A DNA stretch of 32,000 bases from an uncultured Candidatus Saccharimonas sp. (GCA_963528875.1 CAURWT010000001.1:180001-212000); one strand, 5' to 3'. Positions 8,240 to 23,469 are shown, counted from the stretch's first letter. Translations and numbers: made by a program. Notes: generated by a model from the sequence alone, not told the origin.

Positions 8240-8911
8240 TTAATGAAGGCTACAAGTTGGATCTATAAAATCAACTTTATATTTTTTGAAAATATTCTTT
8301 TCTTTAGATTCAAGCCAATTTGTTGCTAAATCTTTATAAAAATCATAGTTCGAACTATTGCATTTACTGAATATTCTAACCGATATATCTTTAACTTCTG
8401 TTTTATCTTTCGTATCTAGATTATAGGTTATTGAAAAGCCCGTAGGTAATGATGTTTTTGTTGCGTTTGTATATGGTAAATGTTTAACTATAGGGTGTTT
8501 TTCGGTTAATTTCTTCATTGTTTCTGTTATTTTTGCATAACCAGCGCCACTTCTAATTATATCGTCTTTCTCATGCTCATTATACCAAGTTCCGTTCGGA
8601 TCATTTTGAGCTAAAGCTAATGAAATATTTGTTTTTTGACCAGATTTAATTTCGAACTCTTTCGAGGCGCTTTCGAAACCATCCTTCGCAACTTCAACCT
8701 TATATTTGCCTGGTGTCATTGTATGAGTTCCGTTTTGGAATTTTTTACCGTTAATTGTTATATTTGAACTTTCTGGCGCGATGCTGAGTAGTAATTTACC
8801 GCAATAAATATCAGACCAAATCCACCAGCCTATAATTACTAACGATAGTATTCCAAAAATGGCCAGAACGGAATAAATTTTAACTTTAGTAGAATTATCA
8901 ATATTTTGCAT
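8240..8911 (-). CDS. Membrane-anchored PEGA-domain protein (last gene of the T4SS-like operon)
   Basis: 223 aa. One N-terminal TM (IYSVLAIFGILSLVIIGWWIW), then LLLSIAPESSNITINGKKF..GKYKVEVAKDGFES..ISLAL, which matches the PEGA pattern. Starts 3 nt after the upstream stop. Confidence 0.7.
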   Translation of the reverse strand: MQNIDNSTKVKIYSVLAIFGILSLVIIGWWIWSDIYCGKLLLSIAPESSNITINGKKFQNGTHTMTPGKYKVEVAKDGFESASKEFEIKSGQKTNISLALAQNDPNGTWYNEHEKDDIIRSGAGYAKITETMKKLTEKHPIVKHLPYTNATKTSLPTGFSITYNLDTKDKTEVKDISVRIFSKCNSSNYDFYKDLATNWLESKEKNIFKKYKVDFIDPTCSLH

Positions 8912-8914
8912 ATC

Positions 8915-10570
8915 TTAACCTTTCCATCGCCAAACTTCAACTTCGCCGAGGCTTTCCATAATCTGAAGATTCATTGGCTCAATAACGCCAGTTGTTCTAC
9001 TGTGTCCAGCATTTGCAACTTTATCTTCACCATTAACCTGAATATAGAATTCTATGTGAGCTGCAGCTCCACCACCAGTTCCTGATGATATAATATCGCC
9101 TGGCTTCATATTGCTTGTGCTTCCATTATAAGGGATTTTCTCATATTTATCTGGGTTACTGCGCATATATTGAACAAGATTTGCAACGCCACAACAATGC
9201 TTAGCGTATTCTGGATCAACAGTTGTACTCATGACCATAGAAACGAAAGCATCACAACTCATACCTTTTTGAACGTATGGTTCACTATAATTAATTAAGC
9301 CAGTTGCGCGCAAAGCTTCCATCTGCTTATCTGTCACCTCTCCGGCATAAGCGGCTGCTTTTTCTGATTCTGGGCGGGCAAGCTCCATTGCTCTATCTAC
9401 GATTGTCGCATTTCCGAGTTTTCCTACTGAAGACGAGCTACAGCTTCCTGATGAATTTGAAGAGCTGTTTCCATCATTTGCAATTTCTTCTTTAAGGAAT
9501 TTTACATAAGCTTCTTGACCTTCTACACTATGATGAACTCCATCTGCCGCATAGAGTTTATCTCTACCACCATTTTTTTCAACATAGCTCTTCCAATCTA
9601 AAATCTTCACCTCGTTATGTCTAGATGCGAAAGCTGAAAGTTTTTGGTTCACTACATTATAGTCAACATTTTGGTTTTTCGAAAAGTTATTTACCCAATA
9701 AATTTTCTTACCTTTAAGCTTGCCGACTAAAGCTTCTGCGGCATTTTCATCAAAGTTATCGTTAGTACCTAAGTTAATAACGACCGTATCATGAATTGTA
9801 TTTGGTAATTTTGATGTTGCAGCAGCAATTGAATCACCAACTGTTGCAGATACATTTGAACCACTGAAGGTTGATGATAATTTGTCTTGAACACCGACCG
9901 TAATTGAATCTCCAATGAAAGTTATAGGTCCTGAAGCCTTTCCTCTACCGCTAGAACCTTTTCCTGCGAATTGTGAAAGCATTTTATTTCCAACTTCTTC
10001 ACCTTCTTTAATACGGGCAGGCCGTAGGTCTTCCCTTGGCCTTTCGAAACCATTAGTCCAAGCTATGGTAGCCTCTCGGACTGTTGATGCTGATTTTACC
10101 ATATTAAGAGCTCTATTTTCTGGACCTTCCAGCTCTTGCCACAAGAAATTTAGCTGAACGCCAAGGTCGGACGCTGGTTTTCCTCTTTCTTTAGCATAAT
10201 TTTCGAGGTTTGTTCGCCGCCCGAATGACCACTGGGCAATACCATAACCAATTCCACTTCCAGCTTCAATTAAATCTGGTTGAAAATGGTTAGATTCACC
10301 CCAGAGACTTCCCATAACACCAGCAGTTTGTTCATCCGTTAAACCTTTTGATTTAAAAAAGTTCCAAATTTTTTCAGCATTATCGTTACCTTCAAGATTT
10401 ATGTCTGCCATATTACCGCTAGATGCTGGAGCGCAATCCTCGCCTGCATCGTAATAAATTATATCATTCAGTTTATAAAAACGTTCATCAAACTCAGCCC
10501 TCGCAATATTTGAAAGAGTGGAGGCTAAAATCAATGAGATTAAAATAATTGATGATATTTTTTTATACAT
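8915..10570 (-). CDS. Secreted three-domain cell-wall hydrolase: lysozyme-like + SGNH/GDSL esterase + NlpC/P60 (CHAP-like) peptidase
   Basis: 551 aa with a signal peptide (..NIARA/EF). aa 65-178: GVMGSLWGESNHF...GYGIAQWSFGRR...LNFLWQEL (phage-tail-lysozyme-like). aa 215-362: SGNH blocks FIGDSITVG, NLGTND, DGVHHS. aa 385-551: Cys/His pair (GMSCDAFV, AAHIEFY). Confidence 0.85.
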   Translation of the reverse strand: MYKKISSIILISLILASTLSNIARAEFDERFYKLNDIIYYDAGEDCAPASSGNMADINLEGNDNAEKIWNFFKSKGLTDEQTAGVMGSLWGESNHFQPDLIEAGSGIGYGIAQWSFGRRTNLENYAKERGKPASDLGVQLNFLWQELEGPENRALNMVKSASTVREATIAWTNGFERPREDLRPARIKEGEEVGNKMLSQFAGKGSSGRGKASGPITFIGDSITVGVQDKLSSTFSGSNVSATVGDSIAAATSKLPNTIHDTVVINLGTNDNFDENAAEALVGKLKGKKIYWVNNFSKNQNVDYNVVNQKLSAFASRHNEVKILDWKSYVEKNGGRDKLYAADGVHHSVEGQEAYVKFLKEEIANDGNSSSNSSGSCSSSSVGKLGNATIVDRAMELARPESEKAAAYAGEVTDKQMEALRATGLINYSEPYVQKGMSCDAFVSMVMSTTVDPEYAKHCCGVANLVQYMRSNPDKYEKIPYNGSTSNMKPGDIISSGTGGGAAAHIEFYIQVNGEDKVANAGHSRTTGVIEPMNLQIMESLGEVEVWRWKG

Positions 10571-13500
10571 TATGTGTCCTGTTTAATTAAATCTGGTGGA
10601 TAGAAAGATGCCGATGTTGATGGTATTGCGGAACCTTTCGAGAGTTCGAAATGTAGGTGTGATCCAGATGAACAGCCATAATTTCCTATAGTTCCAATAG
10701 TCTGGCCTTTCTTAACTTTCTCTCCAGTTTTAACTGAGTGTGAATCCATATGCCAATAGAAAGAATAGACATCTCCTTTGTGTTTAATAATTACGGCATG
10801 TGGACCGCCCATCATATCGGCTGTTCCGTATTTACATCCATTATATGGGGCTACATCGAAACCACCATTAACAACCTCACCATCGGCTACGGCATACACT
10901 TGTGCTCCGTGTGTCCACCCTTTTTCTTCATTAGCGAAATCGATAGCTGGGTGGTTTTGTCGAACTGGTGTGTTAAAGCCTTGGTCGTCTGATACTCCCT
11001 GTATCTTTCCATCCTTAACTTTAGTGTTTTTAAGCGGCCAAATAAATTCACCACTTAATTTTGATAACTCTGGATCTACTCCTCCTTTTGAATTAGATGA
11101 GCTATTGTTTCCACGACTTCCTCCGTTTGAATCTGGTTTAAATTCTTCATTCATTCCCATCTCTGTTCGAAGGTCAGTCAAAAATAGTGAATACCAGTTT
11201 GCTTTAGGATTTTTTTCAGTATTACAAATTCCGCCACGAGTTTCATCGTCATCATCTTCTGATGTTCCGATTGGTGATTTTCGATTGAAGCAATATTTAT
11301 CATATTTTTTCAAGTCGCCGCTCATATTAAATGTATCTAATAGATTGTTTGTTTCACTACTATTTTCTTTCTCTACAATATCACCCCATTCTTTAAGTTT
11401 ATTAACAACTTCTTCAGTGTCAGTTTCTGCTATACCCATATCAATACCAGTATAAACATTACAAAAAATATCGGTTGCGGCACCAGTATCCGTAATTGAT
11501 TTATCTTCACAGGTTTCCATATTGGCTGCAAAGTTTGCACTATTAGCTGCACTTGCTCCTGGCGTAATTGATGCGAATGATCTCTGCGCTCCGCCAATCA
11601 TTGATGGTAATAAACCTTTAATTGAGCCCAAAGTTCCAGCATAGGGCATCATATTACTTACAATCGAACCTAAGAAAGTATGCCGTGTGGTTGGATCAAA
11701 TGGACTATGAGTTTTTCGAATGTCTTCAGCATTTTCAGCAATTTGACGGTCGGTCTCTTGGCGAAATGCAATTGCTTGAGATTTAGTTAAAACGCCACCA
11801 CTTCCAGCCATTGAGTTCTTTGCCATCATCGCCGCAGATCCTGACATTATAGCGTTTCCAAAATTCTCGCCAGTTGTTGAATCATTTAGAATTGTGCCAG
11901 TTAAACCTTCACTTACATATTTCGAAATTGCACCCATGGCTTGATTTTTTAGTATCTCTGCAGCAACAGAAAGAGCTAATCCTAATGCTACTGCCCATAT
12001 TGCCACTTTTACAACATCGCCAATACATCCCCAAAAACCAGTTCCCATACATTTTAGTATTGTTAACGCTACTTGAGCTATACCTACTACTGCAGTAACT
12101 ATACCTGCAACTTTACAGCTTTGTCGTATGAACCAGCCCACCATTCCTGTAGTTAATGTATTCATTAAACTTGCGAACCATCCAGTAATTCCAACCTGGT
12201 AGTCCTTTGCTGAATCATCTAATTTCGAAACTCGGTCGTCATAAGCTACTGCTCGCCAACCTTGTGATTCAGTGGCGCTTTTGATACGGTCGTTATTTGA
12301 TGTAGAATCTGCAAAAAAAGCAAAAGCGTTTTTTAGTCTTGAAGTGTTAGAATTTTTACTGTCAGGATTTTTATTTTCTTTAGAATCTTTTTTATTGGCG
12401 ATGCCCATTAAATTATTGCCTTGTGCCGTAACTTCTTGCTGGGTTGCTTCACCGGCTTTAATTTTTGAAGCCATCGAGAGGAAAGACAAACCAAATTGAG
12501 CCAACACTTCAACTTTAGCTACTTTAGCAACACTCCAACCCATTGAAACTAATGCATAAACTCCACAAACTTTATCTACTGCACTTAAGCTGTTTAAGGT
12601 GCTGCTTGCACCTTCAAGTATTTCCAACCCCATGGCGGCTTTTTCAGATACACTTTGCGCACCTTTTTTAAGCTTATCTTTATATGTTTTTAGTTTTTCT
12701 TTAACTTTTCTAGTTCCTTCATCACCTTTTTGGGCTTTATTTTTACCTTCGTCGTCAGTATCTTCTTTGTCACCTGGTAATTTTTTAGAATCAGTTTCTC
12801 CATCTTTACTATGGTTGTTTGCTGTTTTCTTTATATCTTCATCGATTTCTTCTTCAGTCTTACCTTTATTATCTTTTTTTACTTTTGTAAAATTAAACCA
12901 ACCCTTGAGCTTTTGCCAAGATTTATCAAGAAAAGATGCAAAACGCCCACTAAAACTACGGCGAAAAGCTTGCCGCACATCTGGGTTTTTGGTTAAAATA
13001 TTTTTAATATCCTTAGAAGAATTATTTATTTCAATATTTCTACCATCTTTAATGTAGGTTAATTTTGAAATTTTTTTCCTTCCAAATAAGCTCTCCTTCT
13101 CATCTAAATCAACTTTAAAACCAGCTTTTTCAAGATTTTTGATGTTTCGGTCTGTTACTTTTGACATTCGGCAAACTAAGCCTGCTGGACTACAATTAGT
13201 ACCTTTTATTTTCAGCTTCATCACTTTAACAGAGCGATTATTCATACTTATTGCAGATGAATTGCGTTTCTCGGTAGTAATTTCTTCTATATGAACCTGA
13301 ATAAGTGAAATAATTCCTGTTGAAATTACAAAAATAAATACACTAGCTCCACCAAGAAGGCTGCCCGCTGCTGCCATTGCTCCTTTATTTTTAAAGAATG
13401 ATTTTGCAAGGTTTTTCCAACCGCCTCCTGCTGAGCTTGCTGTGTTGCGAGACTTATGAGTTCCACCGCCGCTCACATTGTTTTGCCAGCCACCAGATTG

Positions 13501-13737
13501 GACAGGTTTTGAATCTTTCGAAAGTGTTTCGGAATCGCTAATTCCAGAATTTGAAGCAGTAGAAGTTGAAGAATTTTCGGCACTCGCCAAAGCAGACGGA
13601 TTATAACCGTCATTTCCTCGAATAACTTCAGCATTTCCCCACCTACTTCTCGCTCGTTCAAGCGCAGATTGATTTGAATCACTCAAGTCGCTAAAATCAA
13701 GATTTTCATCTCTTTCGAAATCTCTAGCTGCTCCCAT
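10570..13737 (-). CDS. Large polytopic membrane protein with a C-terminal M23/LytM metallopeptidase domain
   Basis: 1055 aa. TM segment near aa 120-145 and a TM cluster near aa 520-600. The C-terminal domain carries HPAIDF (HxxxD) and GSHLHFE (HxH), roughly nt 10633-10965. TAATG stop/start overlap with the downstream hydrolase at 10568-10572. Confidence 0.85.
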   Translation of the reverse strand: MGAARDFERDENLDFSDLSDSNQSALERARSRWGNAEVIRGNDGYNPSALASAENSSTSTASNSGISDSETLSKDSKPVQSGGWQNNVSGGGTHKSRNTASSAGGGWKNLAKSFFKNKGAMAAAGSLLGGASVFIFVISTGIISLIQVHIEEITTEKRNSSAISMNNRSVKVMKLKIKGTNCSPAGLVCRMSKVTDRNIKNLEKAGFKVDLDEKESLFGRKKISKLTYIKDGRNIEINNSSKDIKNILTKNPDVRQAFRRSFSGRFASFLDKSWQKLKGWFNFTKVKKDNKGKTEEEIDEDIKKTANNHSKDGETDSKKLPGDKEDTDDEGKNKAQKGDEGTRKVKEKLKTYKDKLKKGAQSVSEKAAMGLEILEGASSTLNSLSAVDKVCGVYALVSMGWSVAKVAKVEVLAQFGLSFLSMASKIKAGEATQQEVTAQGNNLMGIANKKDSKENKNPDSKNSNTSRLKNAFAFFADSTSNNDRIKSATESQGWRAVAYDDRVSKLDDSAKDYQVGITGWFASLMNTLTTGMVGWFIRQSCKVAGIVTAVVGIAQVALTILKCMGTGFWGCIGDVVKVAIWAVALGLALSVAAEILKNQAMGAISKYVSEGLTGTILNDSTTGENFGNAIMSGSAAMMAKNSMAGSGGVLTKSQAIAFRQETDRQIAENAEDIRKTHSPFDPTTRHTFLGSIVSNMMPYAGTLGSIKGLLPSMIGGAQRSFASITPGASAANSANFAANMETCEDKSITDTGAATDIFCNVYTGIDMGIAETDTEEVVNKLKEWGDIVEKENSSETNNLLDTFNMSGDLKKYDKYCFNRKSPIGTSEDDDDETRGGICNTEKNPKANWYSLFLTDLRTEMGMNEEFKPDSNGGSRGNNSSSNSKGGVDPELSKLSGEFIWPLKNTKVKDGKIQGVSDDQGFNTPVRQNHPAIDFANEEKGWTHGAQVYAVADGEVVNGGFDVAPYNGCKYGTADMMGGPHAVIIKHKGDVYSFYWHMDSHSVKTGEKVKKGQTIGTIGNYGCSSGSHLHFELSKGSAIPSTSASFYPPDLIKQDT

Positions 13738-13769: not shown

Positions 13770-13778
13770 ATTTTACCA
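13770..13778 (-). promoter_or_regulatory. Candidate internal extended -10 promoter (TGgTAAAAT) ahead of the M23 gene
   Basis: Minus strand reads TGGTAAAAT. An AGGAA Shine-Dalgarno lies 5-6 nt before the ATG at 13737. Confidence 0.4.
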
Positions 13779-13800
13779 CATTTACGCTTGTGCTTCAAGC

Positions 13801-15662: not shown

Positions 15663-16439
15663 TTAAAATTCTCCTTGATCTGGTCGCTCACCTTCAGCTT
15701 TTCGAACGAATAAACTTGCTGTATCATGAAAATCGCCCAAAGGTTCATAAACGGCCGTATCTGGGTTATAAACATTATAATAAAGTTCACCGAGTTCTTT
15801 AGTGTTTAATTGAACTGATTTGATTCCCATTTGGTAAAGACCACCAGTAATTGAATCAACGCGTTTTTTAATTTCTTCGCGTGCTTTATCCCAAGTGTTG
15901 CGGTCTATTTTCGAAATTTGAGCACCCGGTTTTGCAAAAATTTTACCAAAAAATCCTTTTGCTGAACCCTTTAAATTATTTAAGTCACCACTCGGATAAT
16001 AAGGAACCACAATAAAGAAAGATTTATCCATAATATTCGCACTTCGGCTAAGGCTATCAATAAAGTTAATGTAATCTTCCATTAAATCGCCAAGTAACAT
16101 ATTATCTTGAGCTACTTGAATTTCAGCCAATTTATTTAAATATGGTTCAATGTCAACTCGTTGTGAACGAACTAAAATCTGAATTGGAAAAGTTAATGCG
16201 TTCAAAAAACTTTGATAAGAATATTCCACACCCTCGCGTTCTCGTGCGCTCATAAGATCGAAGTTAATTGATTTGCAAGCAATAACAGCACGAAAGCTTC
16301 CGTCGCGCATTACCACCATTCCTTCGCGAAGTTCGGCGATTTCAAGCGAATTTTGTGTTGAAGATGGATTTGTTGGAGTATTTATATTTGTTTGGTTTTG
16401 GCTCTGATTTTGTTGATTATTAACTTGATTATTGTTCAT
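15663..16439 (-). CDS. Soluble T4SS-associated protein of unknown function with a Q/N-rich N-terminus
   Basis: 258 aa with no TM segment, packed 1-2 nt from both neighbours. The core (LEIAELREGMVVMRDGSFRAVIACKSINFDLMSAREREGV..FLNALTFPIQILVRS) reminds me of pre-ATPase N-domains of VirB4-like proteins. This is recollection only. Confidence 0.7.
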   Translation of the reverse strand: MNNNQVNNQQNQSQNQTNINTPTNPSSTQNSLEIAELREGMVVMRDGSFRAVIACKSINFDLMSAREREGVEYSYQSFLNALTFPIQILVRSQRVDIEPYLNKLAEIQVAQDNMLLGDLMEDYINFIDSLSRSANIMDKSFFIVVPYYPSGDLNNLKGSAKGFFGKIFAKPGAQISKIDRNTWDKAREEIKKRVDSITGGLYQMGIKSVQLNTKELGELYYNVYNPDTAVYEPLGDFHDTASLFVRKAEGERPDQGEF

Positions 16440-17909: not shown

Positions 17910-17918
17910 ATTTTAACA
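17910..17918 (-). promoter_or_regulatory. Candidate extended -10 promoter (TGtTAAAAT) for the prgI-like/virB4 transcription unit
   Basis: Minus strand reads TGTTAAAAT, about 40 nt upstream of the ATG at 17871. Confidence 0.45.
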
Positions 17919-17950
17919 TATTTTCGAAAAAAAATAAAGCTTAAAAATAA

Positions 17951-17980
17951 AATAGGCAAAACATTTAGATTCTGCCTATT
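17951..17980 (-). terminator. Hairpin terminator/attenuator overlapping the stop codon of the VirB6-like gene
   Basis: Perfect 8-bp stem aataggca (17951-17958) / tgcctatt (17973-17980), followed on the minus strand by TTATTTTT. The TAG stop (17976-17978) lies in the stem. Confidence 0.55.
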
Positions 17981-20681
17981 TCTTGTCTTTAATATTTTCG
18001 GGCTTCCAATTTCCTCCCAAAACTTTATCATAAAGACCTTTATTATTTAGTTCAATCTCTTTAAGCATTTTGCGAATTTCAGCACCTTGCACGGCATTGA
18101 GTTTTCCGTATTCTGAAGGGTTTTCGTTAATAGCCTTAACACTTTCGAGTGTGGATCTAATGGTTTCGTTCGACATATTCGAAATTGCTGATTTATCCCA
18201 AATGATTTTCATTGCGTCATTTGAAGCTTTAATGATTTTATCGTCTGAGACATTTTTAGCGTAATTGTCGTGAATGGCATTATAAACTTCTTTCGAATTC
18301 ATTCCATTTACGGCGATATTTTCAAGTGCTGCACCACCAATAAATTGAAGATCGTCTTTTTTGGTTTTCTTGAAAGCTTCAACCAAGTCGTTTCGGTTAG
18401 CGTTCAATTCTCCACCAATTTCAGTTTTACCAAGTGAATCGATAGCACCTTTTAAGTCGGTTGTTCCCATAAACTTCTCGGCTGTTGCAGCACGTAAGTT
18501 TTTAGTAATTTCGAAATCAATTCCATCTTTCTGGATTTTTTCACCCATATTTTTCGAAAAGATTTCACTATAATCATTGCCTGAAAAATTAAGCGATTTT
18601 GTAAGGTTTGTGAGTGATTCGACTTCTTCTTTGTTCTCTTTCGAAGCTGCTACTAAAGAACTTGCAAGCGCCGAGACTTTTCCAGCTTCACCACGCACGC
18701 CAGATGCGGTTTCGAGCAAGTCGTTGCTGTAGCGCATATTATTTGCCATTGCATTATTGAGTGAAAGATTATTATTCTTTTCAGCCAGTTTAAGAGCATT
18801 TGTTTGATTCATATTATCAACAAATCGAAGTGCTTGTTCGCCAAATTTCCCGCGTAAAGCTTTTAGTGATGCTTCGCTTAAATCAACAACACCGGTAATG
18901 TTTCCGTTTGCATCTTTTTTGAGTGTTGAATTAAATAATTCTGCTTTAATTTGTGAAAGCCCAGCATTTGTACTTGCGGTTGCACGATTAAGAGCTTCAG
19001 TTGCTAACATTTCCTGATATTGTGTATCTGAGTTTATTAAATGCTTTTTACGAGCATTATAATACATGTTCGAAAACGCATTCGAACCTTCTGGCATATT
19101 TTGAATTGCATCTCGTCTTTCATTTTCAAGCTCCGTAAAGCGTTCTTTTTGATATAATTCTGCAATTGATTTTGAAGCACCAATTCGACGTCGGCGGTTG
19201 TAGTTCATTTGACTAATTCGTACAGGTAGTGAATTTGGCTTTTCTGCAATTGCACGATTTCGATACATTTCTTGGTTTTCTGAAAGGAATTTCTTTGCAC
19301 GATCAACCGGACCTTTGTTTGGATTATTGATGATTCCAGCAAATTTACCAAGCAGACTACCGCTAATTCGCATAATTGTTGGCGTAATTGCTAGCGGCAC
19401 AACTTGTACTACGGCACCAAGTAAGAAAATTAAAAAGCTACCGTTCGAACTTGCAATAATTGTTGTTCCGATTAATTGCGAACCTCCAAAAAGAAGAGAA
19501 ATTAACGGATACATCACGAGCATCGTAGTAAATAAATCTTTCCATTTTTCGAACCATTTTTCAGTATTTGGCAAAATATTCGCCGCAAATGCAAGTGGCG
19601 CTAAGAAAACTAAAACAATAATAATTGCCTGTCGCGCGGCTAAAATTACTAAAGCTACAACCGCCGAATAAATTACCGCAACTAGTGCTCCAAGAATCAT
19701 CATTACTGCAGCACCAATATTACCCATAGTTGCAACCGTTACAGTGTAAGCGCCATAAGCCACCACGCCAGTTCCGCTCAAAACTGCAGCGGTCATATTT
19801 GACCAATCAAGATTAGCTGTTTTTATCTTATTTTCACCGCCATTATTAAAAATGCTATCTCTAATCCCAATCAAAAGATTTTGAGTTTGTGCGCCTAAAA
19901 TATTCGAAATATCAACTAAAATTGCACAAATATAATAAGAAACATTAATTAAAATTGCTGCAATAATTAGCTTTGGCAATAATTTCTTAATTCCATAATT
20001 ACTGATTCCAAAACCTGTTACTTGCGAATAAATTACAAAAACAAATCCAATCACAAAAAAGACGTTTGCAACATTTCGCATATAATCCCAAACTTGAAAA
20101 AGACCAGATTGATTAGATGTATAAAGTGGTTGAACTCGCAAAAATGCTTGGAGCCAGTCATAAATACCATCCATCCATTTCGAAATCGTATTAGCGACCA
20201 TACAAACCATCCAGCCACCGCCACCCTCAACACTACAAAGTGATTTATCTTCATTTTTCGAAACACCATCAACTTTAACATCTTGTGCTTCGCCGTTTTG
20301 TTTTACATTTCCAAGCGCACTTACATCAAATGAATAAATTTTTCCGCTTGAAGCATCATTCTCGTTTTCAAGAGCAATTACTGTTGTTTTATTTTCACCA
20401 GCATTTAATGAAGAATTTTCGGCATAAAGTTTTTTTGAACGAATTGATTCTGGGAATCTTGAAGTATCAGAAACTTTTGAATATGTTTTTCCGTTATATG
20501 TTATGCCATTTTTTGAAGAATCTGTCCATTTTGCTCCATCAATAGCAAGGGCGATATTCGAATTAAAAAATCCCAAGATTGCGACTACTGTAAAGATCGC
20601 GATGAAAAACACATTTCGAAAATCTTGAGTTTTTGCTTTTTTGAACCTCGCCAAAGTTTGCATATGACCTGATTTTATCAT
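17976..20681 (-). CDS. VirB6/TrbL-like polytopic T4SS channel protein with an N-terminal exposed domain and a long hydrophilic C-terminal half
   Basis: 901 aa. Signal/anchor segment, about 110-aa exposed region, then a block of at least 6 TM helices (aa ~150-450) of the kind seen in TrbL/VirB6, PrgH and TcpH-type proteins, then about 450 hydrophilic residues. The true start is probably Met7 (ATG at 20663) because a consensus promoter overlaps the first ATG. Confidence 0.8.
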   Translation of the reverse strand: MIKSGHMQTLARFKKAKTQDFRNVFFIAIFTVVAILGFFNSNIALAIDGAKWTDSSKNGITYNGKTYSKVSDTSRFPESIRSKKLYAENSSLNAGENKTTVIALENENDASSGKIYSFDVSALGNVKQNGEAQDVKVDGVSKNEDKSLCSVEGGGGWMVCMVANTISKWMDGIYDWLQAFLRVQPLYTSNQSGLFQVWDYMRNVANVFFVIGFVFVIYSQVTGFGISNYGIKKLLPKLIIAAILINVSYYICAILVDISNILGAQTQNLLIGIRDSIFNNGGENKIKTANLDWSNMTAAVLSGTGVVAYGAYTVTVATMGNIGAAVMMILGALVAVIYSAVVALVILAARQAIIIVLVFLAPLAFAANILPNTEKWFEKWKDLFTTMLVMYPLISLLFGGSQLIGTTIIASSNGSFLIFLLGAVVQVVPLAITPTIMRISGSLLGKFAGIINNPNKGPVDRAKKFLSENQEMYRNRAIAEKPNSLPVRISQMNYNRRRRIGASKSIAELYQKERFTELENERRDAIQNMPEGSNAFSNMYYNARKKHLINSDTQYQEMLATEALNRATASTNAGLSQIKAELFNSTLKKDANGNITGVVDLSEASLKALRGKFGEQALRFVDNMNQTNALKLAEKNNNLSLNNAMANNMRYSNDLLETASGVRGEAGKVSALASSLVAASKENKEEVESLTNLTKSLNFSGNDYSEIFSKNMGEKIQKDGIDFEITKNLRAATAEKFMGTTDLKGAIDSLGKTEIGGELNANRNDLVEAFKKTKKDDLQFIGGAALENIAVNGMNSKEVYNAIHDNYAKNVSDDKIIKASNDAMKIIWDKSAISNMSNETIRSTLESVKAINENPSEYGKLNAVQGAEIRKMLKEIELNNKGLYDKVLGGNWKPENIKDKK

Positions 20682-20700
20682 AATTTAACCCTTTTGTCAA
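20672..20700 (-). promoter_or_regulatory. Near-consensus promoter TTGACA-17-TGaTAAAAT for the VirB6-like gene
   Basis: On the minus strand: -35 TTGACA (20695-20700), 17-nt spacer, TG (20679-20680), -10 TAAAAT (20672-20677). The ATG at 20663 begins 9 nt after the -10, so the transcript would be nearly leaderless. Confidence 0.6.
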
Positions 20701-20768
20701 CCTTAAAATTAAGTTTTTAGAATAAAACACTTGCTTTTTCCCTAAAAATGGTTTAAAGTATAATTATC

Positions 20769-21218
20769 ATGGTAAACAAAATAAAAAATATAATAATAGT
20801 TGGGCTGATTTTGACAAGCTTTTTCGCGGCTTTTCAGAGTATTATTATTTCGAATTATGGCTCTAGCTATGCTTTTGCTGAAGAGCTTGTGGAGGATGGT
20901 AATGGAAATCTAACCACGCCAAATGGTAATAACGGTAAAAGTGGTGGATCTCCCGCTGAAGCAAAAACTGCAATTCTCCCTTCAGACTGGAAAATTGAAG
21001 ATATTTTAAATATGGTTTTAGTTGTAGTAACTACTGGCGTTGGAATTGCAGCAGTTGGCTCGATTGTCTTTGCTGGCGTTTTGTATATTACCGCTCGCGA
21101 TAATGCTGCACAAGTTTCGAAAGCTAAAACAATGATTATGAATACAATTATCGGTATTATAGCTTATATTTTAATGTGGGCGTTCTTAGAGTGGATTATT
21201 CCAGGAGGAATTTTATAA
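20769..21218 (+). CDS. VirB2/TrbC-like T4SS pilin paralog 1
   Basis: 149 aa. Signal peptide, variable region, then a two-helix hydrophobic core with a polar loop (AGVLYITARDNAAQVSKAKTMIMNTIIGIIAYIL) shared with the five following ORFs. Confidence 0.8.
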   Translation: MVNKIKNIIIVGLILTSFFAAFQSIIISNYGSSYAFAEELVEDGNGNLTTPNGNNGKSGGSPAEAKTAILPSDWKIEDILNMVLVVVTTGVGIAAVGSIVFAGVLYITARDNAAQVSKAKTMIMNTIIGIIAYILMWAFLEWIIPGGIL

Positions 21219-21646
21219 TGAAAAAGATTATTCTAGCGATTTTTATAACTTTTATGCCAGTTTTATATTTTTCGAATAGTGCTTATGCGGCTGGTTGTAA
21301 CGATAATCAAACTTTTTTCGGTCTCCCCGCTTGGTATCGTGGATTAACTAAATCTGGCGAAGGCGGATGCCAAATTAAAAATATTGGGCCGTCTGGAAAG
21401 GGTGAAGTTACTTTAGAACAGTTTGTCTGGACAGTGGTTGCGAATGTTATTGATATGGCCTTTCGAATTGCTGGTGTTGCTGCAATAGGATTCATTATTT
21501 ATGCAGGTTATCAATATATGATTGCTGTTGGTGACCCAGGAAAACTTGCAGGTGCTAAAAAATCACTAACTAATGCAATAATCGGACTAGTGATTGCGGT
21601 TCTTGCTTCAACAATAGTAACGTTTATATTAGGAATTTTAGGATAA
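21218..21646 (+). CDS. VirB2/TrbC-like T4SS pilin paralog 2
   Basis: I place the start at 21218 (MKKIILAIFITF...) rather than the track's 21176. AGGAGG lies upstream and there is a TAATG overlap with paralog 1. Cys pair (AAGC...GGC), then the core AGYQYMIAVGDPGKLAGAKKSLTNAIIGLVIAVL. Confidence 0.8.
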   Translation: MKKIILAIFITFMPVLYFSNSAYAAGCNDNQTFFGLPAWYRGLTKSGEGGCQIKNIGPSGKGEVTLEQFVWTVVANVIDMAFRIAGVAAIGFIIYAGYQYMIAVGDPGKLAGAKKSLTNAIIGLVIAVLASTIVTFILGILG

Positions 21647-21966
21647 TGAAAGAATATAGATTTTTAGCAGAAGCATCCTTTGATAAATCAAAAGTATTAA
21701 ACGGGATTGATACTTCAAATAAAAACAAAGCTAGCGATGCTTCGATGCAGAATGCTTTCAATACTGCTTTTATCTGGGCTGGAATTATCTGTGTAATTAT
21801 AATTATTGTGGCAGGATTAACATTTATAACGGCTGCCGGAAATCCAGGAACAATTTCGAAAGCAAAATCTGCACTAATTTACGCTTGTGTAGGTATTGTT
21901 GTAATCATATCAGCCGCACTAATTGTTAACTTAATTCTTGGCGGATTACTAACGGGGTCAATATAA
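21646..21966 (+). CDS. VirB2/TrbC-like T4SS pilin paralog 3 (no obvious signal peptide)
   Basis: 106 aa. TAATG overlap at 21644-21648. Hydrophilic N-terminus, then the core AGLTFITAAGNPGTISKAKSALIYACVGIVVII. Confidence 0.75.
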   Translation: MKEYRFLAEASFDKSKVLNGIDTSNKNKASDASMQNAFNTAFIWAGIICVIIIIVAGLTFITAAGNPGTISKAKSALIYACVGIVVIISAALIVNLILGGLLTGSI

Positions 21967-22514
21967 TGAAAAAAATAATTTTAATAAGTAGCATTTTATT
22001 CTCAATAATTCTATCACCTATTGCTTTTGCGGAAGGTGGAACTAATGGGACTAATGGTAGTGGAGGAACATTTAACGCTTGCAAACATGTTGTTTCTGGA
22101 AAGACTGCAGTTTGTTCTGGTGATTCAAAAAATGCTACAAATATTGCTAAAAATATAATCTCCATTTTCCTGTGGGTTGTTGGTATAGCGGCGGTTATTG
22201 TTATTATTTACGCGGGAATAACATTTGTAACAGCAGCTGGAAATCCATCAGCAATTGCTCGAGCCAAAACAATGATAATTTATGCTGTTATTGGTTTAGC
22301 AGTTGCAATTCTCTCTTATGCGATTGTTAATTTCGTTATTAACACTTCAAGTGGAAAAGGAGTTAATGGAGGACCATCTGGAAGCTCGGGCAATTCTAGT
22401 GAATCTAATAATTCAAGTGGCTCAACTAATACTGGATCACAAAGTAAAAACCAAAATGGTGAAAATAGTTCAGGACAAAGTTCAAGCGGTTCGAATAGCT
22501 CAAATAATAATTAA
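21966..22514 (+). CDS. VirB2/TrbC-like T4SS pilin paralog 4 with a S/N/G-rich C-terminal tail
   Basis: 182 aa. TAATG overlap at 21964-21968. Signal peptide, Cys pair (NACKHVVSGKTAVCSG), core AGITFVTAAGNPSAIARAKTMIIYAVIGLAVAILSYAIVNFVIN, then about 55 aa of S/N/G low complexity. Confidence 0.8.
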   Translation: MKKIILISSILFSIILSPIAFAEGGTNGTNGSGGTFNACKHVVSGKTAVCSGDSKNATNIAKNIISIFLWVVGIAAVIVIIYAGITFVTAAGNPSAIARAKTMIIYAVIGLAVAILSYAIVNFVINTSSGKGVNGGPSGSSGNSSESNNSSGSTNTGSQSKNQNGENSSGQSSSGSNSSNNN

Positions 22515-22534
22515 AACAATATAAGGAGAATAAA

Positions 22535-22924
22535 ATGAAGAAAATTTTAATAGCTTTTGGATTAATTCTTGCGGTGACTGGCTCTTTTGCCTTCAATGCT
22601 GGATTTTTCGAAAAACAAGCTTATGCAAATAGTGCAGCAGATTTAATTAAACAAGGTGCAGATTCAACAGGCCAACAAGATACTCGTTCAGCTGGTGATA
22701 TTGCTAAAGATGTTGTAAATATAATGTTCTTTATCATTGGTGTTATGGCGGTTATTATGATTATTTGGGGTGGAATTCGATATGTTCTTTCAGCTGGAAA
22801 TAGTGCTGCTCTCACTAGTGCGAAAAATACAATCGTCTACTCTATTATAGGTTTAATTATCGCAATCCTCGCATACGCAATTGTGAACTTTGTTATTAAT
22901 ACTGTTGCAGGCGGCAATCGGTAA
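22535..22924 (+). CDS. VirB2/TrbC-like T4SS pilin paralog 5
   Basis: 129 aa. AAGGAG Shine-Dalgarno upstream. Signal peptide, then core GGIRYVLSAGNSAALTSAKNTIVYSIIGLIIAILAYAIVNFVIN. Confidence 0.8.
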   Translation: MKKILIAFGLILAVTGSFAFNAGFFEKQAYANSAADLIKQGADSTGQQDTRSAGDIAKDVVNIMFFIIGVMAVIMIIWGGIRYVLSAGNSAALTSAKNTIVYSIIGLIIAILAYAIVNFVINTVAGGNR

Positions 22925-22985: not shown

Positions 22986-23013
22986 TTGCAAAATAGTAAA
23001 AATTTGATATAAT
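22986..23013 (+). promoter_or_regulatory. Promoter TTGCAA-16-TGaTATAAT for pilin paralog 6
   Basis: -35 TTGCAA (22986-22991), TG (23005-23006), -10 TATAAT (23008-23013). Confidence 0.55.
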
Positions 23014-23052
23014 TTAGGTATATATAATTTAAGAAAGGAAATGTAATTTAAA

Positions 23053-23469
23053 ATGAAAAATATTGTAAAAATGGCTCTATTGACCGCTGCGACAATATTC
23101 ACTGTTGGTGCTACTACACTTGTAACAATTCCAGCTTACGCTGCTGATTGTAAGGTTACTGGTGGTTTGAAATCTGCTGATAGCTGTGCTAAAGGTGTTC
23201 AAGAAGAAAATGGTGGTCCAACAAGCTTGTTTGATGGCGACTCTCCAATTTTCACGACTGCAATCAATATTATGTTATTTATAATTGGTATTCTTAGCGT
23301 GATTATGCTTATTTATGGTGGTATTCGCTATGTGCTTTCGAGTGGTGATGCTGGTGCTGTTCAAAACGCTAAAAATACAATTATGTATGCTATTATTGGT
23401 CTTGTAATTGCAATCCTTGCTTACGCAATTGTTAACTTCGTTATTCATTCGATTACTAATAAAGAATAA
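23053..23469 (+). CDS. VirB2/TrbC-like T4SS pilin paralog 6 (own promoter and terminator)
   Basis: 138 aa. Signal peptide (..IPAYA/AD), Cys pair (ADCKVTGGLKSADSC), core GGIRYVLSSGDAGAVQNAKNTIMYAIIGLVIAILAYAIVNFVIH. Confidence 0.8.
   Translation: MKNIVKMALLTAATIFTVGATTLVTIPAYAADCKVTGGLKSADSCAKGVQEENGGPTSLFDGDSPIFTTAINIMLFIIGILSVIMLIYGGIRYVLSSGDAGAVQNAKNTIMYAIIGLVIAILAYAIVNFVIHSITNKE

What the first reader, a model, noticed from the sequence alone, without database searches (positions are those of the whole stretch)
8240..23469. Origin-proximal type IV secretion-like locus mixing Gram-positive-type parts with VirB2-type pilins and lacking DNA-transfer genes
Two divergent units share a 90-bp control region (20682-20768). 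The minus-strand unit encodes VirB6/TrbL-like, PrgI(VirB3)-like, a 258-aa unknown, VirB4, a 1055-aa M23 membrane protein, a three-domain wall hydrolase and a PEGA protein. Gene spacing is -1 to +3 nt inside two blocks. Those blocks are set off by a terminator at 17951-17980 and candidate internal promoters at 17910 and 13770. The plus-strand unit encodes six VirB2/TrbC-like pilins. The window shows no relaxase, VirD4-type coupling ATPase, VirB11, VirB8/9/10 or integrase. The locus sits 25 bp from recF at the chromosomal origin. It carries the host-typical TTCGAA density of about 3 per kb. It therefore looks like a long-resident chromosomal machine rather than an ICE. PrgI-type and multi-hydrolase parts are typical of monoderm conjugation systems, which normally lack VirB2 pilins, so the combination is unusual. 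From memory, similar gene sets occur in Saccharibacteria/CPR genomes and their function is poorly resolved. Plausible roles are effector or contact-dependent delivery into a host cell, or ComB-like DNA uptake.
Basis: partly seen in the sequence, partly recalled or inferred. Interest (0 to 1): 0.8.

Follow-up and report, generated by a model that had tools for sequence, protein, structure and literature searches.

The report
Known Saccharibacteria type IV secretion locus
This is the chromosomal, origin-adjacent type IV secretion-like machine with six pilin genes that all Saccharibacteria carry; it was already described and shown to be essential for their life on host bacteria in 2023-2025, so the finding is correct but not new.

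Summary
Thirteen genes in two divergent units sit 24 bp from recF, next to a dnaA-flanking origin. They encode VirB6-like, PrgI/VirB3-like and VirB4 proteins, a giant M23 membrane protein, a secreted multi-domain hydrolase, a PEGA protein and six VirB2-like pilins. No relaxase, coupling protein or integrase is present.

The interpretation also holds, but the system is published. The window matches Southlakia epibionticum SEML1_0005-0019 gene for gene. That system is essential by Tn-seq (Wang 2023), was surveyed across 3,035 Patescibacteria genomes (Quinonero-Coronel 2025) and has been reviewed (FEMS Microbiol Rev 2025). The window comes from an uncultured Nanogingivalis-related Saccharibacterium.

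Refinements from this work:
- The 258-aa "unknown" is a TrsD-like, split-off VirB4 N-terminal domain.
- Both divergent promoters are conserved and give near-leaderless mRNAs. The VirB6-like start is probably Met7 (20663).
- VirB4 is about 82% identical across Saccharibacteria, where DnaA, DnaN and RecF are about 48%.
- The hydrolase catalytic modules are swapped between lineages.
- The "unusual" pilin plus Gram-positive combination also occurs outside CPR. Embleya and Streptomyces plasmids have it with a coupling protein and relaxase; Pontibacillus and Priestia replicons have it too.

Function remains inferred. The most likely role is a VirB4-driven pilus or conduit to the host cell, not conjugation.

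The parts
8240..8911 (-). Exported PEGA-domain protein, 223 aa (counterpart of SEML1_0005)
   Evidence: Pfam PEGA 30.8 bits. It has an N-terminal hydrophobic anchor. It is poorly conserved, about 30% identity over half its length.
8915..10570 (-). Secreted three-module wall hydrolase, 551 aa: signal peptide, Phage_lysozyme2, GDSL/SGNH esterase and a CHAP-like C-terminus
   Evidence: Pfam hits. The lysozyme module is kept in 29 of 30 orthologues. The other modules are swapped: C39_2, GDSL, Amidase_3, glucosaminidase, GH43, GDPD.
10570..13737 (-). 1055-aa polytopic membrane protein with a C-terminal M23 endopeptidase
   Evidence: Pfam M23 71.5 bits at residues 929-1035. The C-terminal catalytic domain varies among orthologues: M23 in 16 of 32, VanY in 4, CHAP in 2, NlpC/P60 in 1. 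A 1051-aa M23 protein follows virB4 in Pontibacillus.
13770..13798 (-). Candidate internal promoter TTGAAG-17-TGgTAAAAT for the hydrolase block
   Evidence: Promoter scan; extended -10 match; AGGA Shine-Dalgarno 5 nt before the ATG. Not tested experimentally.
13801..15660 (-). VirB4 ATPase, 619 aa, CD1110 (MPF_FATA) type, lacking the first ~175 residues of full-length VirB4
   Evidence: NCBIfam NF045971 373.5 bits > 325, aligned to profile positions 176-734 of 752. PDB 4ag5 VirB4 E 6e-49. Median 82% identity across 61 distant Saccharibacteria.
15663..16439 (-). TrsD-like protein, 258 aa: a separately encoded VirB4 N-terminal domain (counterpart of SEML1_0009)
   Evidence: NCBIfam TrsD E 1.7e-7, plus hits to the N-termini of three VirB4 models. 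All 32 orthologues hit TrsD. The AF2 model has pLDDT 58, and its top 14 Foldseek PDB hits are all R388 TrwK/VirB4.
16441..17871 (-). PrgI/VirB3-like membrane protein, 476 aa, with a long Q/N-rich C-terminal extension
   Evidence: Pfam PrgI 42.1 bits at residues 5-90. Only the first ~190-225 residues are conserved in distant relatives.
17910..17918 (-). Extended -10 element TGtTAAAAT, a candidate promoter of the PrgI-TrsD-VirB4 block
   Evidence: There is no good -35 element, so this is a candidate only.
17949..17982 (-). Intrinsic terminator after the VirB6-like gene
   Evidence: 14-bp stem followed by a U-run; -15.7 kcal/mol, z = -3.9.
17976..20663 (-). Extended VirB6/TrbL-like polytopic protein, 895 aa from Met7 (901 aa from the first ATG at 20681)
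   Evidence: Pfam TrbL 19.3 bits, below cut-off. Five of 27 orthologues hit TrbL. Homologue P0071 (E 6.6e-23) scores 34 bits, above the cut-off of 25.9. The start is revised because the conserved -10 element overlaps the first ATG.
20664..20768 (.). Divergent control region with two back-to-back promoters. P_virB6: TTGACA (20700-20695), 17 nt, TGaTAAAAT (to 20672), 8 nt, ATG 20663. P_pil: TTGCTT (20731-20736), 17 nt, TAAAGT (20754-20759), 9 nt, ATG 20769.
   Evidence: The hexamers and start codons are invariant in 7 sequences, including two whose VirB6 is only 42-48% identical (alignment A1; sequence). Both transcripts would have 2-3-nt leaders, which is an inference.
20769..21218 (+). Pilin 1, 149 aa, VirB2-like
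   Evidence: PF18895 24.2 bits, just below cut-off; NF045849 E 5e-7. Its N-terminal mature segment is hypervariable between strains.
21218..21646 (+). Pilin 2, 142 aa
   Evidence: PF18895 50.7 bits. The ATG overlaps the pil1 stop codon by 1 nt.
21646..21966 (+). Pilin 3, 106 aa, the only one without an N-terminal signal peptide
   Evidence: PF18895 44.6 bits; sequence.
21966..22514 (+). Pilin 4, 182 aa, with an S/G/N-rich variable C-terminal tail
   Evidence: PF18895 38.1 bits; strain variation in the tail.
22535..22924 (+). Pilin 5, 129 aa
   Evidence: PF18895 47.3 bits.
22986..23013 (+). Candidate separate promoter for pilin 6: TTGCAA, 16 nt, TGaTATAAT
23053..23469 (+). Pilin 6, 138 aa
   Evidence: PF18895 42.1 bits. 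The AF2 model shows a signal helix followed by a two-helix hairpin with pLDDT 84-90. It is 55% identical to pilin 5.
23560..23581 (.). Hairpin between the convergent pil6 and hsp20 genes; reads as a terminator on both strands
4066..6016 (.). Context: dnaA flanked by two DnaA-box clusters (TTTTCCACA five times and four times), a bipartite oriC about 2-4 kb from the locus

Best explanation
This is the Patescibacteria-type chromosomal type IV secretion system, in the compact form common in Saccharibacteria.

Inferred mechanism. A membrane translocon is formed by the VirB6-like channel or platform, the PrgI/VirB3-like anchor and a two-piece VirB4 ATPase (the TrsD-like N-domain plus the 619-aa ATPase). 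This translocon extracts Sec-inserted VirB2-like pilins from the membrane and polymerises them into an extracellular filament or conduit. The membrane-anchored M23 peptidase and the secreted lysozyme/esterase/CHAP enzyme open peptidoglycan for its passage: the epibiont's own wall and probably the host's.

The apparatus serves contact-dependent exchange with the host bacterium. That could be export of proteins or import of host molecules. It does not serve relaxase-dependent conjugation.

Shown here: gene identities, operon layout, vertical inheritance at oriC, absence of T4CP and relaxase in the locus, and extreme conservation of VirB4.

Shown elsewhere: orthologues are essential for epibiotic growth in S. 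epibionticum.

Inferred: pilus assembly, the target of the hydrolases, and the cargo and its direction.
For: - Domain assignments.
- One-to-one gene order with SEML1_0003-0022, including six pilins, hsp20, comF and tRNA-Ser, read from Wang 2023 Tables S1/S2. In that study all T4SS genes and all pilins are classed as essential.
- Synteny with dnaA-dnaN-recF in the Saccharibacteria loci that extend that far, among 80 species-level genomes.
- VirB4 median identity is 82% and TrsD-like 67%, against DnaA 49%, DnaN 47% and RecF 48% in the same genomes.
- TTCGAA density is the same inside and outside the locus.
- Five of six pilins have Sec signal peptides with AxA sites, and all have a two-helix core.
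- Between-strain variation is confined to the pilin segments outside the helical core, as expected for surface-exposed parts.
- The hydrolase catalytic modules are exchanged between lineages while the scaffolds are kept, consistent with adaptation to different wall chemistries.
- In VirB/D4 systems, pilus biogenesis needs VirB4, VirB3, VirB6 and VirB2 but not VirD4 (established knowledge; reviewed in PMC12857230).
Against: - No filament has been seen for any Patescibacteria T4SS.
- The VirB6 assignment rests on sub-threshold and transitive hits.
- No VirB5-like tip protein and no VirB8-like protein is present in this window.
- The fold search with the pilin model was non-specific.
- Essentiality in co-culture does not separate a host-interaction role from an intrinsic envelope role.
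- A VirD4 homologue may exist elsewhere in the genome. One does in S. epibionticum, where it is non-essential.
Confidence: 0.85

Rival explanations
1. It is a DNA or nucleotide import machine, working like the archaeal Ced/Ted system or H. pylori ComB. The VirB2-like pilus and the VirB6/VirB4 translocon would pull host DNA into the epibiont, which cannot make nucleotides.
For: The composition parallels Ced: VirB2-like, VirB6-like and VirB4-like parts with no relaxase or T4CP. VirB4 weakly matches the CedB and CedD models. A comF-like gene is a conserved neighbour. Import of DNA or other macromolecules from hosts is the hypothesis put forward in PMC12102498.
Against: In S. epibionticum, deleting comEC abolishes transformation but the strain stays viable, while the T4SS is essential. 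The neighbouring comF-like gene SEML1_0021 is non-essential. CedB scores 45 bits against a cut-off of 700.
Confidence: 0.15
2. It is an ordinary integrated conjugative element, or a conjugative T4SS whose coupling protein, relaxase and integrase lie outside the window.
For: VirB4 belongs to a family typical of conjugative elements. The closest non-CPR relatives in Embleya and Streptomyces carry a T4CP and a replication-relaxation protein next to virB4. tRNA genes lie nearby.
Against: No integrase, relaxase or T4CP was found in 32 kb or within +/-10 kb in 80 related genomes. The locus holds the same position between recF and hsp20 in the related Saccharibacteria loci long enough to show both flanks, with protein divergence tracking the host genes. 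Its TTCGAA signature is native. Only 109 relaxases were found in 3,035 Patescibacteria genomes.
Confidence: 0.03
3. It is an intrinsic envelope machine. The T4SS-derived apparatus would export or position wall hydrolases and pilin-like membrane proteins for the epibiont's own wall growth or budding, independent of the host.
For: Three of the seven minus-strand genes are wall-active or wall-associated. Essentiality was measured only in co-culture. VirB4 is conserved more strongly than the replication proteins, as expected for a housekeeping function.
Against: The hydrolase modules vary between lineages, whereas a purely self-directed function should track the epibiont's own conserved wall. The pilin surface segments vary between strains, which suggests an outward-facing interaction.
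Confidence: 0.1

Closest known systems
Southlakia epibionticum ML1 T4SS, SEML1_0005-0019 (Wang et al. 2023, Cell; PMC10633639)
   Same: The gene order and sizes are the same: recF | PEGA, lysozyme-type hydrolase, ~1100-aa membrane peptidase, VirB4, ~260-290-aa partner, PrgI, VirB6-like | six pilins | hsp20, comF-like, tRNA-Ser. No relaxase or T4CP lies in the locus. It sits at the origin.
   Different: The window lacks counterparts of SEML1_0004, 0011 and 0012. SEML1_0012 is the NTF2/VirB8-like gene and is non-essential. 44 of 59 Saccharibacteria loci share this compact form. The big protein ends in M23 here, not in a DD-peptidase (Hedgehog/DD-peptidase group; top structural match a Peptidase M15B domain-containing protein). 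The secreted hydrolase has a GDSL module instead of a second lysozyme-like module. PrgI is longer (476 aa against 301 aa).
Patescibacteria VirB4 clade and its T4SS repertoire (Quinonero-Coronel et al. 2025, Microb Genom; PMC12102498)
   Same: VirB4, TrsD, PrgI/VirB3, VirB6 and VirB2-like arrays of 2-11 genes, with the relaxase absent and proximity to dnaA/dnaN. All of this is described there.
   Different: Nothing essential differs. The paper states that VirB2-like pilins are absent from MPF_FATA and that the Patescibacteria VirB4 clade contains no homologues from other origins. The relatives found here suggest pilin-bearing Gram-positive kin exist.
CD1110-family Gram-positive conjugative T4SS (for example C. 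botulinum pCDC3875 and a Brevibacillus plasmid; of the pCF10/CTn type)
   Same: The order VirB6 - PrgI - VirB4 - large wall hydrolase is shared. VirB4 passes the CD1110 cut-off.
   Different: Those systems have a full-length ~790-aa VirB4, a CD1115 T4CP, a relaxase and no PF18895-type pilin. VirB4 is only ~30% identical.
Pilin-bearing T4SS clusters on Embleya/Streptomyces linear plasmids and Pontibacillus/Priestia large replicons (found here)
   Same: They carry PF18895 pilin(s), a VirB6-like protein, PrgI, a TrsD-like domain and a VirB4 of ~620-645 aa that is 37-40% identical. Pontibacillus also has a 1051-aa M23 protein directly after virB4.
   Different: They have one or two pilins, co-oriented with the operon, rather than six in a divergent unit. 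In the actinobacterial versions TrsD is fused to PrgI, and a T4CP and a replication-relaxation protein are present. They are not at a chromosomal origin.
Archaeal Ced/Ted DNA-import systems (PMC9905601)
   Same: They combine a VirB2-like pilus, a VirB6-like protein and a VirB4-like ATPase, are chromosomal and have no relaxase or T4CP.
   Different: Sequence similarity is only remote: CedB 45 bits against a cut-off of 700. They have no wall hydrolases. Their import function is not supported here.
Mycoplasma ICE T4SS (Mbov_0395 pilin-like protein, Mbov_0397 VirB4)
   Same: All six pilins match NF045849 (E 2e-8 to 5e-7). VirB4 matches NF045975 at 270 bits, and the TrsD-like protein matches that model's N-terminus.
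   Different: All scores are below the equivalog cut-offs. The Mycoplasma systems are mobile elements with a fused, full-length VirB4.

Membership tests
Patescibacteria-type chromosomal T4SS (Wang 2023; Quinonero-Coronel 2025) | VirB4 of the MPF_FATA-nested type | tested here: met
   NF045971 373.5 bits > 325. 80-100% identical to VirB4 of 80 Saccharibacteria genomes.
Patescibacteria-type chromosomal T4SS (Wang 2023; Quinonero-Coronel 2025) | TrsD-like gene next to virB4 | tested here: met
   TrsD E 1.7e-7, below the family cut-off of 200 bits. All 32 orthologues hit TrsD. The top 14 Foldseek hits are VirB4.
Patescibacteria-type chromosomal T4SS (Wang 2023; Quinonero-Coronel 2025) | PrgI/VirB3 homologue near virB4 | tested here: met
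   PF12666 42.1 bits > 27.
Patescibacteria-type chromosomal T4SS (Wang 2023; Quinonero-Coronel 2025) | VirB6/TrbL-like polytopic protein | tested here: met
   The direct hit is sub-threshold: 19.3 bits against 25.9. The feature is met only through a transitive link, P0071 (E 6.6e-23), which scores TrbL 34 bits. The gene position is conserved.
Patescibacteria-type chromosomal T4SS (Wang 2023; Quinonero-Coronel 2025) | Tandem array of divergent VirB2-like (PF18895) pilins | tested here: met
   Six genes, five above the cut-off. Pairwise identity is 27-55%.
Patescibacteria-type chromosomal T4SS (Wang 2023; Quinonero-Coronel 2025) | Chromosomal location near dnaA/dnaN, with no relaxase in the cluster | tested here: met
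Patescibacteria-type chromosomal T4SS (Wang 2023; Quinonero-Coronel 2025) | Essential for epibiotic growth | not testable with these tools
   Known only for S. epibionticum orthologues.
Integrative conjugative element / conjugative MPF_FATA T4SS | Relaxase | tested here: not met
   No relaxase domain in the window ORFs scanned. tblastn with two relaxase types gave no hit in the window or in 80 loci. The rest of the genome could not be searched.
Integrative conjugative element / conjugative MPF_FATA T4SS | VirD4/TcpA-type coupling protein | tested here: not met
   Same searches. It may exist elsewhere in the genome, which could not be tested.
Integrative conjugative element / conjugative MPF_FATA T4SS | Integrase with flanking att repeats; variable insertion site | tested here: not met
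   No integrase was found. The flanks are identical in the related Saccharibacteria loci that reach them. Att repeats were not searched for.
Integrative conjugative element / conjugative MPF_FATA T4SS | VirB8-like (NTF2 fold) component such as PrgL, TraM or TcpC | tested here: inconclusive
   There is no Pfam hit and no spare ORF. The fold of the PEGA protein's C-terminal domain was not modelled. The S. epibionticum counterpart of that gene (SEML1_0012) is absent here.
ComB-type DNA-uptake T4SS (H. pylori) | ComB7-ComB10 outer-membrane core homologues | tested here: not met
   No VirB7/8/9/10 domains. The organism is a monoderm according to the literature.
Ced/Ted archaeal DNA importer | CedB-type ATPase at the equivalog level | tested here: not met
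   NF041017 45.4 bits against a cut-off of 700.

The most novel reading that the evidence does not exclude
The pilin-plus-monoderm combination may not be a CPR invention or a chimera with diderm parts. On this reading, the Saccharibacteria system descends from a previously unrecognised pilin-bearing subclass of Gram-positive T4SS. That subclass still exists as apparently conjugative modules (pilin, VirB6, PrgI::TrsD, VirB4, T4CP, relaxase) on Streptomycetaceae linear plasmids. It also exists as modules without an adjacent relaxase or intact T4CP gene on Bacillaceae megareplicons (T4CP-like fragments lie 5-13 kb away). The CPR version would then have arisen by loss of the T4CP and relaxase, amplification of the pilin to six paralogues, and fixation at oriC, possibly after transfer from actinobacterial hosts. 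This would also mean that some classical Gram-positive conjugation systems build VirB2-type pili.
Probability: 0.4. Interest if true: 0.55.

Novelty: already known. Interest (0 to 1): 0.3.

Why it matters
The system itself matters. It is the first T4SS reported to be essential to the bacterium that carries it. It is a leading candidate for how ultrasmall CPR epibionts exploit their hosts, and its cargo is unknown. This window adds only another member.

The useful increments are practical:
- A compact 13-gene version that lacks the non-essential VirB8-like gene.
- Defined, conserved, near-leaderless promoters for both units.
- A clear annotation of the split VirB4.
- Evidence that the wall-hydrolase modules are the lineage-variable, possibly host-matching parts.
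- Culturable Gram-positive relatives (Embleya, Streptomyces, Pontibacillus) in which pilus formation by this T4SS subclass could be tested genetically.

Tried and rejected
- hhalign of the 258-aa family against the locus's own VirB4 family gave no similarity. This is expected in hindsight, because that VirB4 lacks the N-domain and the alignments were too shallow (Neff 1.8).
- phmmer and profile searches of the 258-aa family against PDB sequences found nothing. Only the fold search did, and on a mediocre model (pLDDT 58, TM about 0.32).
- A profile of VirB6-like orthologues against PDB sequences gave only low-complexity noise.
- A Foldseek search with the pilin-6 model returned generic helical hairpins and no VirB2/TraA pilins. 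This is uninformative for so simple a fold.
- PF19590 and PF26593 are precomputed on homologues of the VirB6-like and 258-aa proteins. They are not in the Pfam copy I could scan, so I could not confirm their names.
- I considered that the Priestia 1.08-Mb 'plasmid' might be a misassigned CPR genome. I did not pursue it. The region's GC (33.7%) and neighbours are inconclusive, and the record is unannotated.
- The ICE hypothesis was rejected on synteny and on the absence of mobility genes.
- I did not model the PEGA protein or the N-terminal 900 residues of the M23 protein.

Full report
**What is in the window**

The 32-kb window has about 33% GC. It carries, in order:
- ruvA, ruvC and two lamin-tail-domain proteins;
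- dnaA, dnaN and recF;
- the locus in question (8240-23469);
- hsp20, a comF-like phosphoribosyltransferase, tRNA-Ser, a DUF5673 protein, tRNA-Arg, a polysaccharide deacetylase and a second tRNA-Ser;
- a low-GC segment with a 620-aa protein that has no family match and an MmeI-type restriction-modification gene.

dnaA is flanked by two clusters of the box TTTTCCACA: five copies at 4066-4236 and four at 5805-6016. The locus therefore lies 2-4 kb from a bipartite oriC. The recF and PEGA genes converge with a 24-bp gap.

**Check of the observation**

Profile searches support the names.

| Gene | Evidence |
|---|---|
| PEGA protein | Pfam PEGA 30.8 bits |
| Secreted hydrolase | Phage_lysozyme2 121.5 bits, GDSL 31.3 bits, weak CHAP |
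| 1055-aa membrane protein | Peptidase_M23 71.5 bits at its C-terminus |
| VirB4 | NCBIfam CD1110 family, 373.5 bits against a cut-off of 325; E 6e-49 to the solved VirB4 domain 4ag5 |
| 476-aa protein | PrgI 42.1 bits in its first 90 residues |
| Six pilins | PF18895 T4SS_pilin, five above the cut-off; pilin 1 at 24.2 against 26.6 bits |
| VirB6-like protein | TrbL 19.3 bits against 25.9 |

The VirB6 call is the weakest:
- Only 5 of 27 orthologues reach E < 0.01 against TrbL.
- A homologue that matches the window protein at E 6.6e-23 does pass the TrbL cut-off, at 34 bits.

Other points of the observation also hold:
- Spacing within blocks is -1 to +3 nt, with 63- and 104-nt gaps between blocks.
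- The terminator after the VirB6-like gene is real as a structure: 14-bp stem, -15.7 kcal/mol, z = -3.9.
- No relaxase, coupling ATPase, VirB11, VirB8/9/10 or integrase domain was found in the ORFs scanned, which are the annotated gene set.
- TTCGAA occurs at 3.09/kb inside the locus and 3.10/kb outside it. This is five times the dinucleotide-shuffle expectation, so the locus carries the same compositional signature as the rest of the window.

**Corrections and additions to the anatomy**

*The 258-aa "unknown" is a split-off VirB4 N-terminal domain.*
- It matches NCBIfam TrsD (E 1.7e-7) and the N-terminal 100-230 positions of three different VirB4 models. The 619-aa VirB4 aligns only from position 176 of the CD1110 model.
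- All 32 orthologues tested match TrsD.
- An AlphaFold model is only moderate (pLDDT 58). Even so, its 14 best PDB matches are all chains of R388 TrwK/VirB4 (probability 0.77-0.99).
- VirB4 is therefore encoded in two pieces.

*The divergent control region holds two conserved promoters.* On the minus strand:
- TTGACA (20700-20695), 17 nt, then TGaTAAAAT (ending at 20672).
- This element overlaps the first in-frame ATG at 20681 and precedes an invariant CATATG by 8 nt.
- The start is therefore most likely Met7 at 20663, with a 2-nt leader.

On the plus strand:
- TTGCTT (20731-20736), 17 nt, TAAAGT (20754-20759), then 9 nt to the pilin-1 ATG.

These hexamers and start codons are invariant in seven sequences, including two whose VirB6 proteins are only 42-48% identical. 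Neither gene has a Shine-Dalgarno sequence.

*Further promoter and start-site notes.*
- Extended -10 motifs of the same type precede the PrgI block (17910-17918), the hydrolase block (13770-13778) and pilin 6 (23005-23013). These are candidates, not demonstrated promoters.
- Pilin 2 starts at 21218, overlapping the pilin-1 stop codon.

**Whose genome, and is the locus resident?**

A scan of one genome per species with VirB4 returned 80 loci:
- Nearly all records whose title gives a taxon are labelled Saccharibacteria, Saccharimonas or Patescibacteria MAGs. Three short contigs sit in bins labelled otherwise.
- Near-identical contigs are labelled uncultured Candidatus Saccharimonas sp.
- The closest named genus is Candidatus Nanogingivalis (TM7 group G6), with VirB4 90% identical.

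tblastn of all window proteins against these loci shows one gene order in the loci long enough to reach the flanks: dnaA-dnaN-recF | (PEGA)-hydrolase-big peptidase-VirB4-TrsD-like-PrgI-VirB6-like | pilins | hsp20-comF. The dnaA/dnaN/recF side is seen in 53-57 loci and the hsp20/comF side in about 25.

This rules out a recently integrated element. The conservation is also uneven. Across 61 distant genomes the median identities are:

| Protein | Median identity |
|---|---|
| VirB4 | 82% (over 97% of its length) |
| TrsD-like | 67% |
| DnaA | 49% |
| DnaN | 47% |
| RecF | 48% |
| Big peptidase | 24% |
| Pilin cores | 36-45% |

The loci were chosen by VirB4 similarity, which inflates the VirB4 figure somewhat. 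That bias cannot explain a gap of this size within the same genome pairs.

**Comparison with the literature**

The system is published.
- Wang et al. 2023 (PMC10633639) describe an "apparent T4SS (SEML1_0006-0019)" in Southlakia epibionticum. They say it most resembles Gram-positive conjugative systems, has essential pilin subunits, and lacks recognisable coupling and relaxase proteins.
- Their tables list, after recF: a PEGA protein, a lysozyme/cysteine-protease hydrolase, a 1114-aa protein with a C-terminal peptidase, VirB4, a 294-aa unannotated protein, PrgI, two extra genes, a VirB6-like protein, six pilins, hsp20, a comF-like gene and tRNA-Ser. One of the two extra genes is NTF2/VirB8-like and non-essential. 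This matches the window gene for gene apart from three genes the window lacks.
- 44 of 59 Saccharibacteria loci share the window's compact VirB6-PrgI junction.
- Quinonero-Coronel et al. 2025 (PMC12102498) surveyed 3,035 Patescibacteria genomes. They report the MPF_FATA-nested VirB4 clade, TrsD, PrgI, VirB6, 441 arrays of 2-11 VirB2-like pilins, the near absence of relaxases, and proximity to dnaA/dnaN.
- A 2025 FEMS review repeats this. It notes six pilins in S. epibionticum and calls the system the first T4SS essential to its bearer.

The finding is not new.

**How it most likely works**

*Shown here:* the parts list, the three-plus-two transcription-unit layout, vertical inheritance at the origin, and the absence of T4CP and relaxase from the locus. 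For that last point, tblastn with T4CP and relaxase proteins from the nearest conjugative relatives found nothing in the window or in 1.36 Mb of related loci.

*Shown by others:* essentiality of the orthologues in co-culture.

*Inferred:*
- VirB3, VirB4, VirB6 and VirB2 are the subset that suffices for pilus biogenesis in VirB/D4 systems, without VirD4. This is established knowledge, reviewed in PMC12857230.
- Five of six pilins have Sec signal peptides ending in AxA, and all have a two-helix core.
- Among near-identical strains, variation is confined to the N-terminal mature segment of pilin 1 and the S/G/N-rich tail of pilin 4. The helical core is invariant. This is what surface exposure in an assembled filament would predict.
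- The wall enzymes keep their scaffolds but exchange catalytic heads between lineages. The big protein ends in M23, VanY, CHAP or NlpC/P60. The secreted enzyme keeps its lysozyme module and adds C39-like, GDSL, amidase, glucosaminidase, GH43 or GDPD modules. This fits adaptation to differing wall chemistries, plausibly those of the hosts.

I therefore favour a VirB4-driven pilus or conduit directed at the host cell, with cargo and direction unknown.

*Rivals:*
- DNA import in the manner of Ced or ComB remains possible. It is disfavoured because a comEC deletion is viable while the T4SS is essential, and because the adjacent comF-like gene is dispensable in S. epibionticum.
- A purely self-directed envelope role cannot be excluded, because essentiality was measured only in co-culture.

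**Is the combination really unusual?**

Partly not.
- All six pilins match the NCBIfam model for a Mycoplasma ICE "pilin-like conjugal transfer protein" better than they match diderm TrbC/VirB2.
- tblastn against plasmids found the closest VirB4 relatives (37-40% identity) on Embleya and Streptomyces linear plasmids and on Pontibacillus and Priestia large replicons.

These relatives carry PF18895 pilins next to the same module.

| Replicon | Gene content near virB4 |
|---|---|
| Pontibacillus | Two pilins, a VirB6-like protein, a VirB3-like protein, a TrsD-like protein, VirB4 and a 1051-aa M23 protein. No adjacent relaxase; only a T4CP-like fragment about 13 kb away. |
| Embleya | An unannotated pilin ORF (72 bits), a VirB6-like protein, a PrgI::TrsD fusion and VirB4, followed by a T4CP, a replication-relaxation protein and an NlpC/P60 hydrolase. 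|
| Streptomyces sp. BHT-5-2 | The same arrangement as Embleya. |

Ordinary CD1110 plasmids from Clostridium and Brevibacillus differ. They have a full-length VirB4, a T4CP and a relaxase, and no such pilin.

In a quick neighbour-joining tree without support values, the pilin-bearing Gram-positive VirB4s group with the Saccharibacteria clade. This suggests that the pilins came with a Gram-positive T4SS subclass rather than being co-opted from diderm systems. That point is not made in the papers I read. It needs a proper phylogeny that includes the other CPR classes.

**Verdict**

- Novelty: already known.
- Interest is low to moderate. The system is important and its function is open, but this window adds a further member plus some annotation refinements and one testable evolutionary lead.

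Noticed in passing
whole window; sites listed: The palindrome TTCGAA (often TTTCGAAA) occurs 99 times (3.1/kb) against 19 +/- 4.5 expected. It holds 10.6% of all CpG in the window. It falls in all three codon phases and in intergenic DNA, so it is a DNA-level signal. It is patchy among relatives: 2-3.7/kb in the window's species group and in two Nanogingivalis-like MAGs (L015, L018), but 0.1-0.5/kb in N. gingivitcus (L014), L016, L017 and all other Saccharibacteria. An uptake-signal-like sequence or a methyltransferase footprint are possible; it remains unexplained.
   Followed up: partly
window 28583-32000: This segment has no TTCGAA site, where about 10 would be expected at the window's density. 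Its GC falls to 0.25-0.27 at 28-30 kb. It holds a 620-aa protein with no family match and an MmeI-type restriction-modification gene (MTase, TRD and C domains; the ORF is 525 aa and begins just after a stop codon). It is probably a recently acquired defence islet.
   Followed up: no
window 748-756, 20672-20680, 25008-25016, 25912-25920 and others: The extended -10 motif TGNTAWAAT is enriched threefold (26 against 8.8 +/- 2.8). It often ends 6-9 nt before a start codon (ruvA, the VirB6-like gene, the DUF5673 gene, the polysaccharide deacetylase) or about 10 nt before a tRNA. This suggests that leaderless or near-leaderless mRNAs are common in this organism.
   Followed up: partly
window 4066-4236 and 5805-6016: There are two DnaA-box clusters (TTTTCCACA), one on each side of dnaA, forming a bipartite oriC. 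The 67-aa ORF at 5793-5996 lies inside the second cluster and is probably not a gene.
   Followed up: partly
window 23593-24060 (hsp20) and 24152-24805 (comF-like): hsp20 is convergent with the last pilin gene. Its position is conserved across Saccharibacteria (61% median identity) and it is listed as essential in S. epibionticum. The comF-like neighbour is non-essential there. Whether hsp20 has any link to the T4SS is unknown.
   Followed up: no
window 13801-15660 compared with 4218-8215: VirB4 is about 82% identical across Saccharibacteria species whose DnaA, DnaN and RecF are only 47-49% identical. This is an unusually slow-evolving secretion ATPase.
   Followed up: yes
window 8915-13737; orthologues in L012-L077: The catalytic modules of the two wall enzymes are exchanged between lineages. 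One lineage (L070) carries a GH43 module and another a glycerophosphodiester phosphodiesterase module. These hint at non-peptidoglycan envelope targets such as arabinan or teichoic acid.
   Followed up: partly
L082 9520-10050 (Embleya sp. NBC_00896 plasmid NZ_CP108778): A 176-aa T4SS_pilin ORF (PF18895 72 bits) has no entry in the gene table between two annotated genes. It lies upstream of VirB6-like, PrgI::TrsD, VirB4, a T4CP and a relaxase-like gene. This is a VirB2-like pilin in an apparently conjugative actinobacterial module.
   Followed up: yes
L083 9456-19009 (Pontibacillus sp. ALD_SL1, 898-kb replicon NZ_CP062975): A free-living Bacillota carries the same module as the window: two pilins, VirB6-like, VirB3-like, TrsD-like, VirB4 and a 1051-aa M23 protein. 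It sits beside flagellar genes. The only mobility-related trace is a T4CP-like fragment about 13 kb away.
   Followed up: partly
L088, L089 (Jeotgalibacillus 603-kb and C. perfringens pJFP838A 404-kb 'plasmids'): Split-VirB4 modules (PrgI, TrsD-like, ~640-aa VirB4, large M23 protein) sit among genes for an RNA-polymerase-like protein, SecA, ClpX, a sigma factor and a prepilin peptidase. The nature of these very large replicons is unclear. In Jeotgalibacillus, the protein annotated as an RNA polymerase matched my M23-protein HMM.
   Followed up: no
L090 6561-7424 (Chlorohelix plasmid): A PEGA-domain protein lies about 2.5 kb upstream of a related VirB4 gene in a Chloroflexota plasmid. The association of PEGA with this VirB4 type may therefore extend beyond CPR.
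   Followed up: no
window 1254-3741: Two adjacent, overlapping genes encode secreted or membrane proteins with weak lamin-tail-domain matches. They lie immediately upstream of oriC, have the lowest GC in the window (0.23) and have no homologues in the related loci examined.
   Followed up: no
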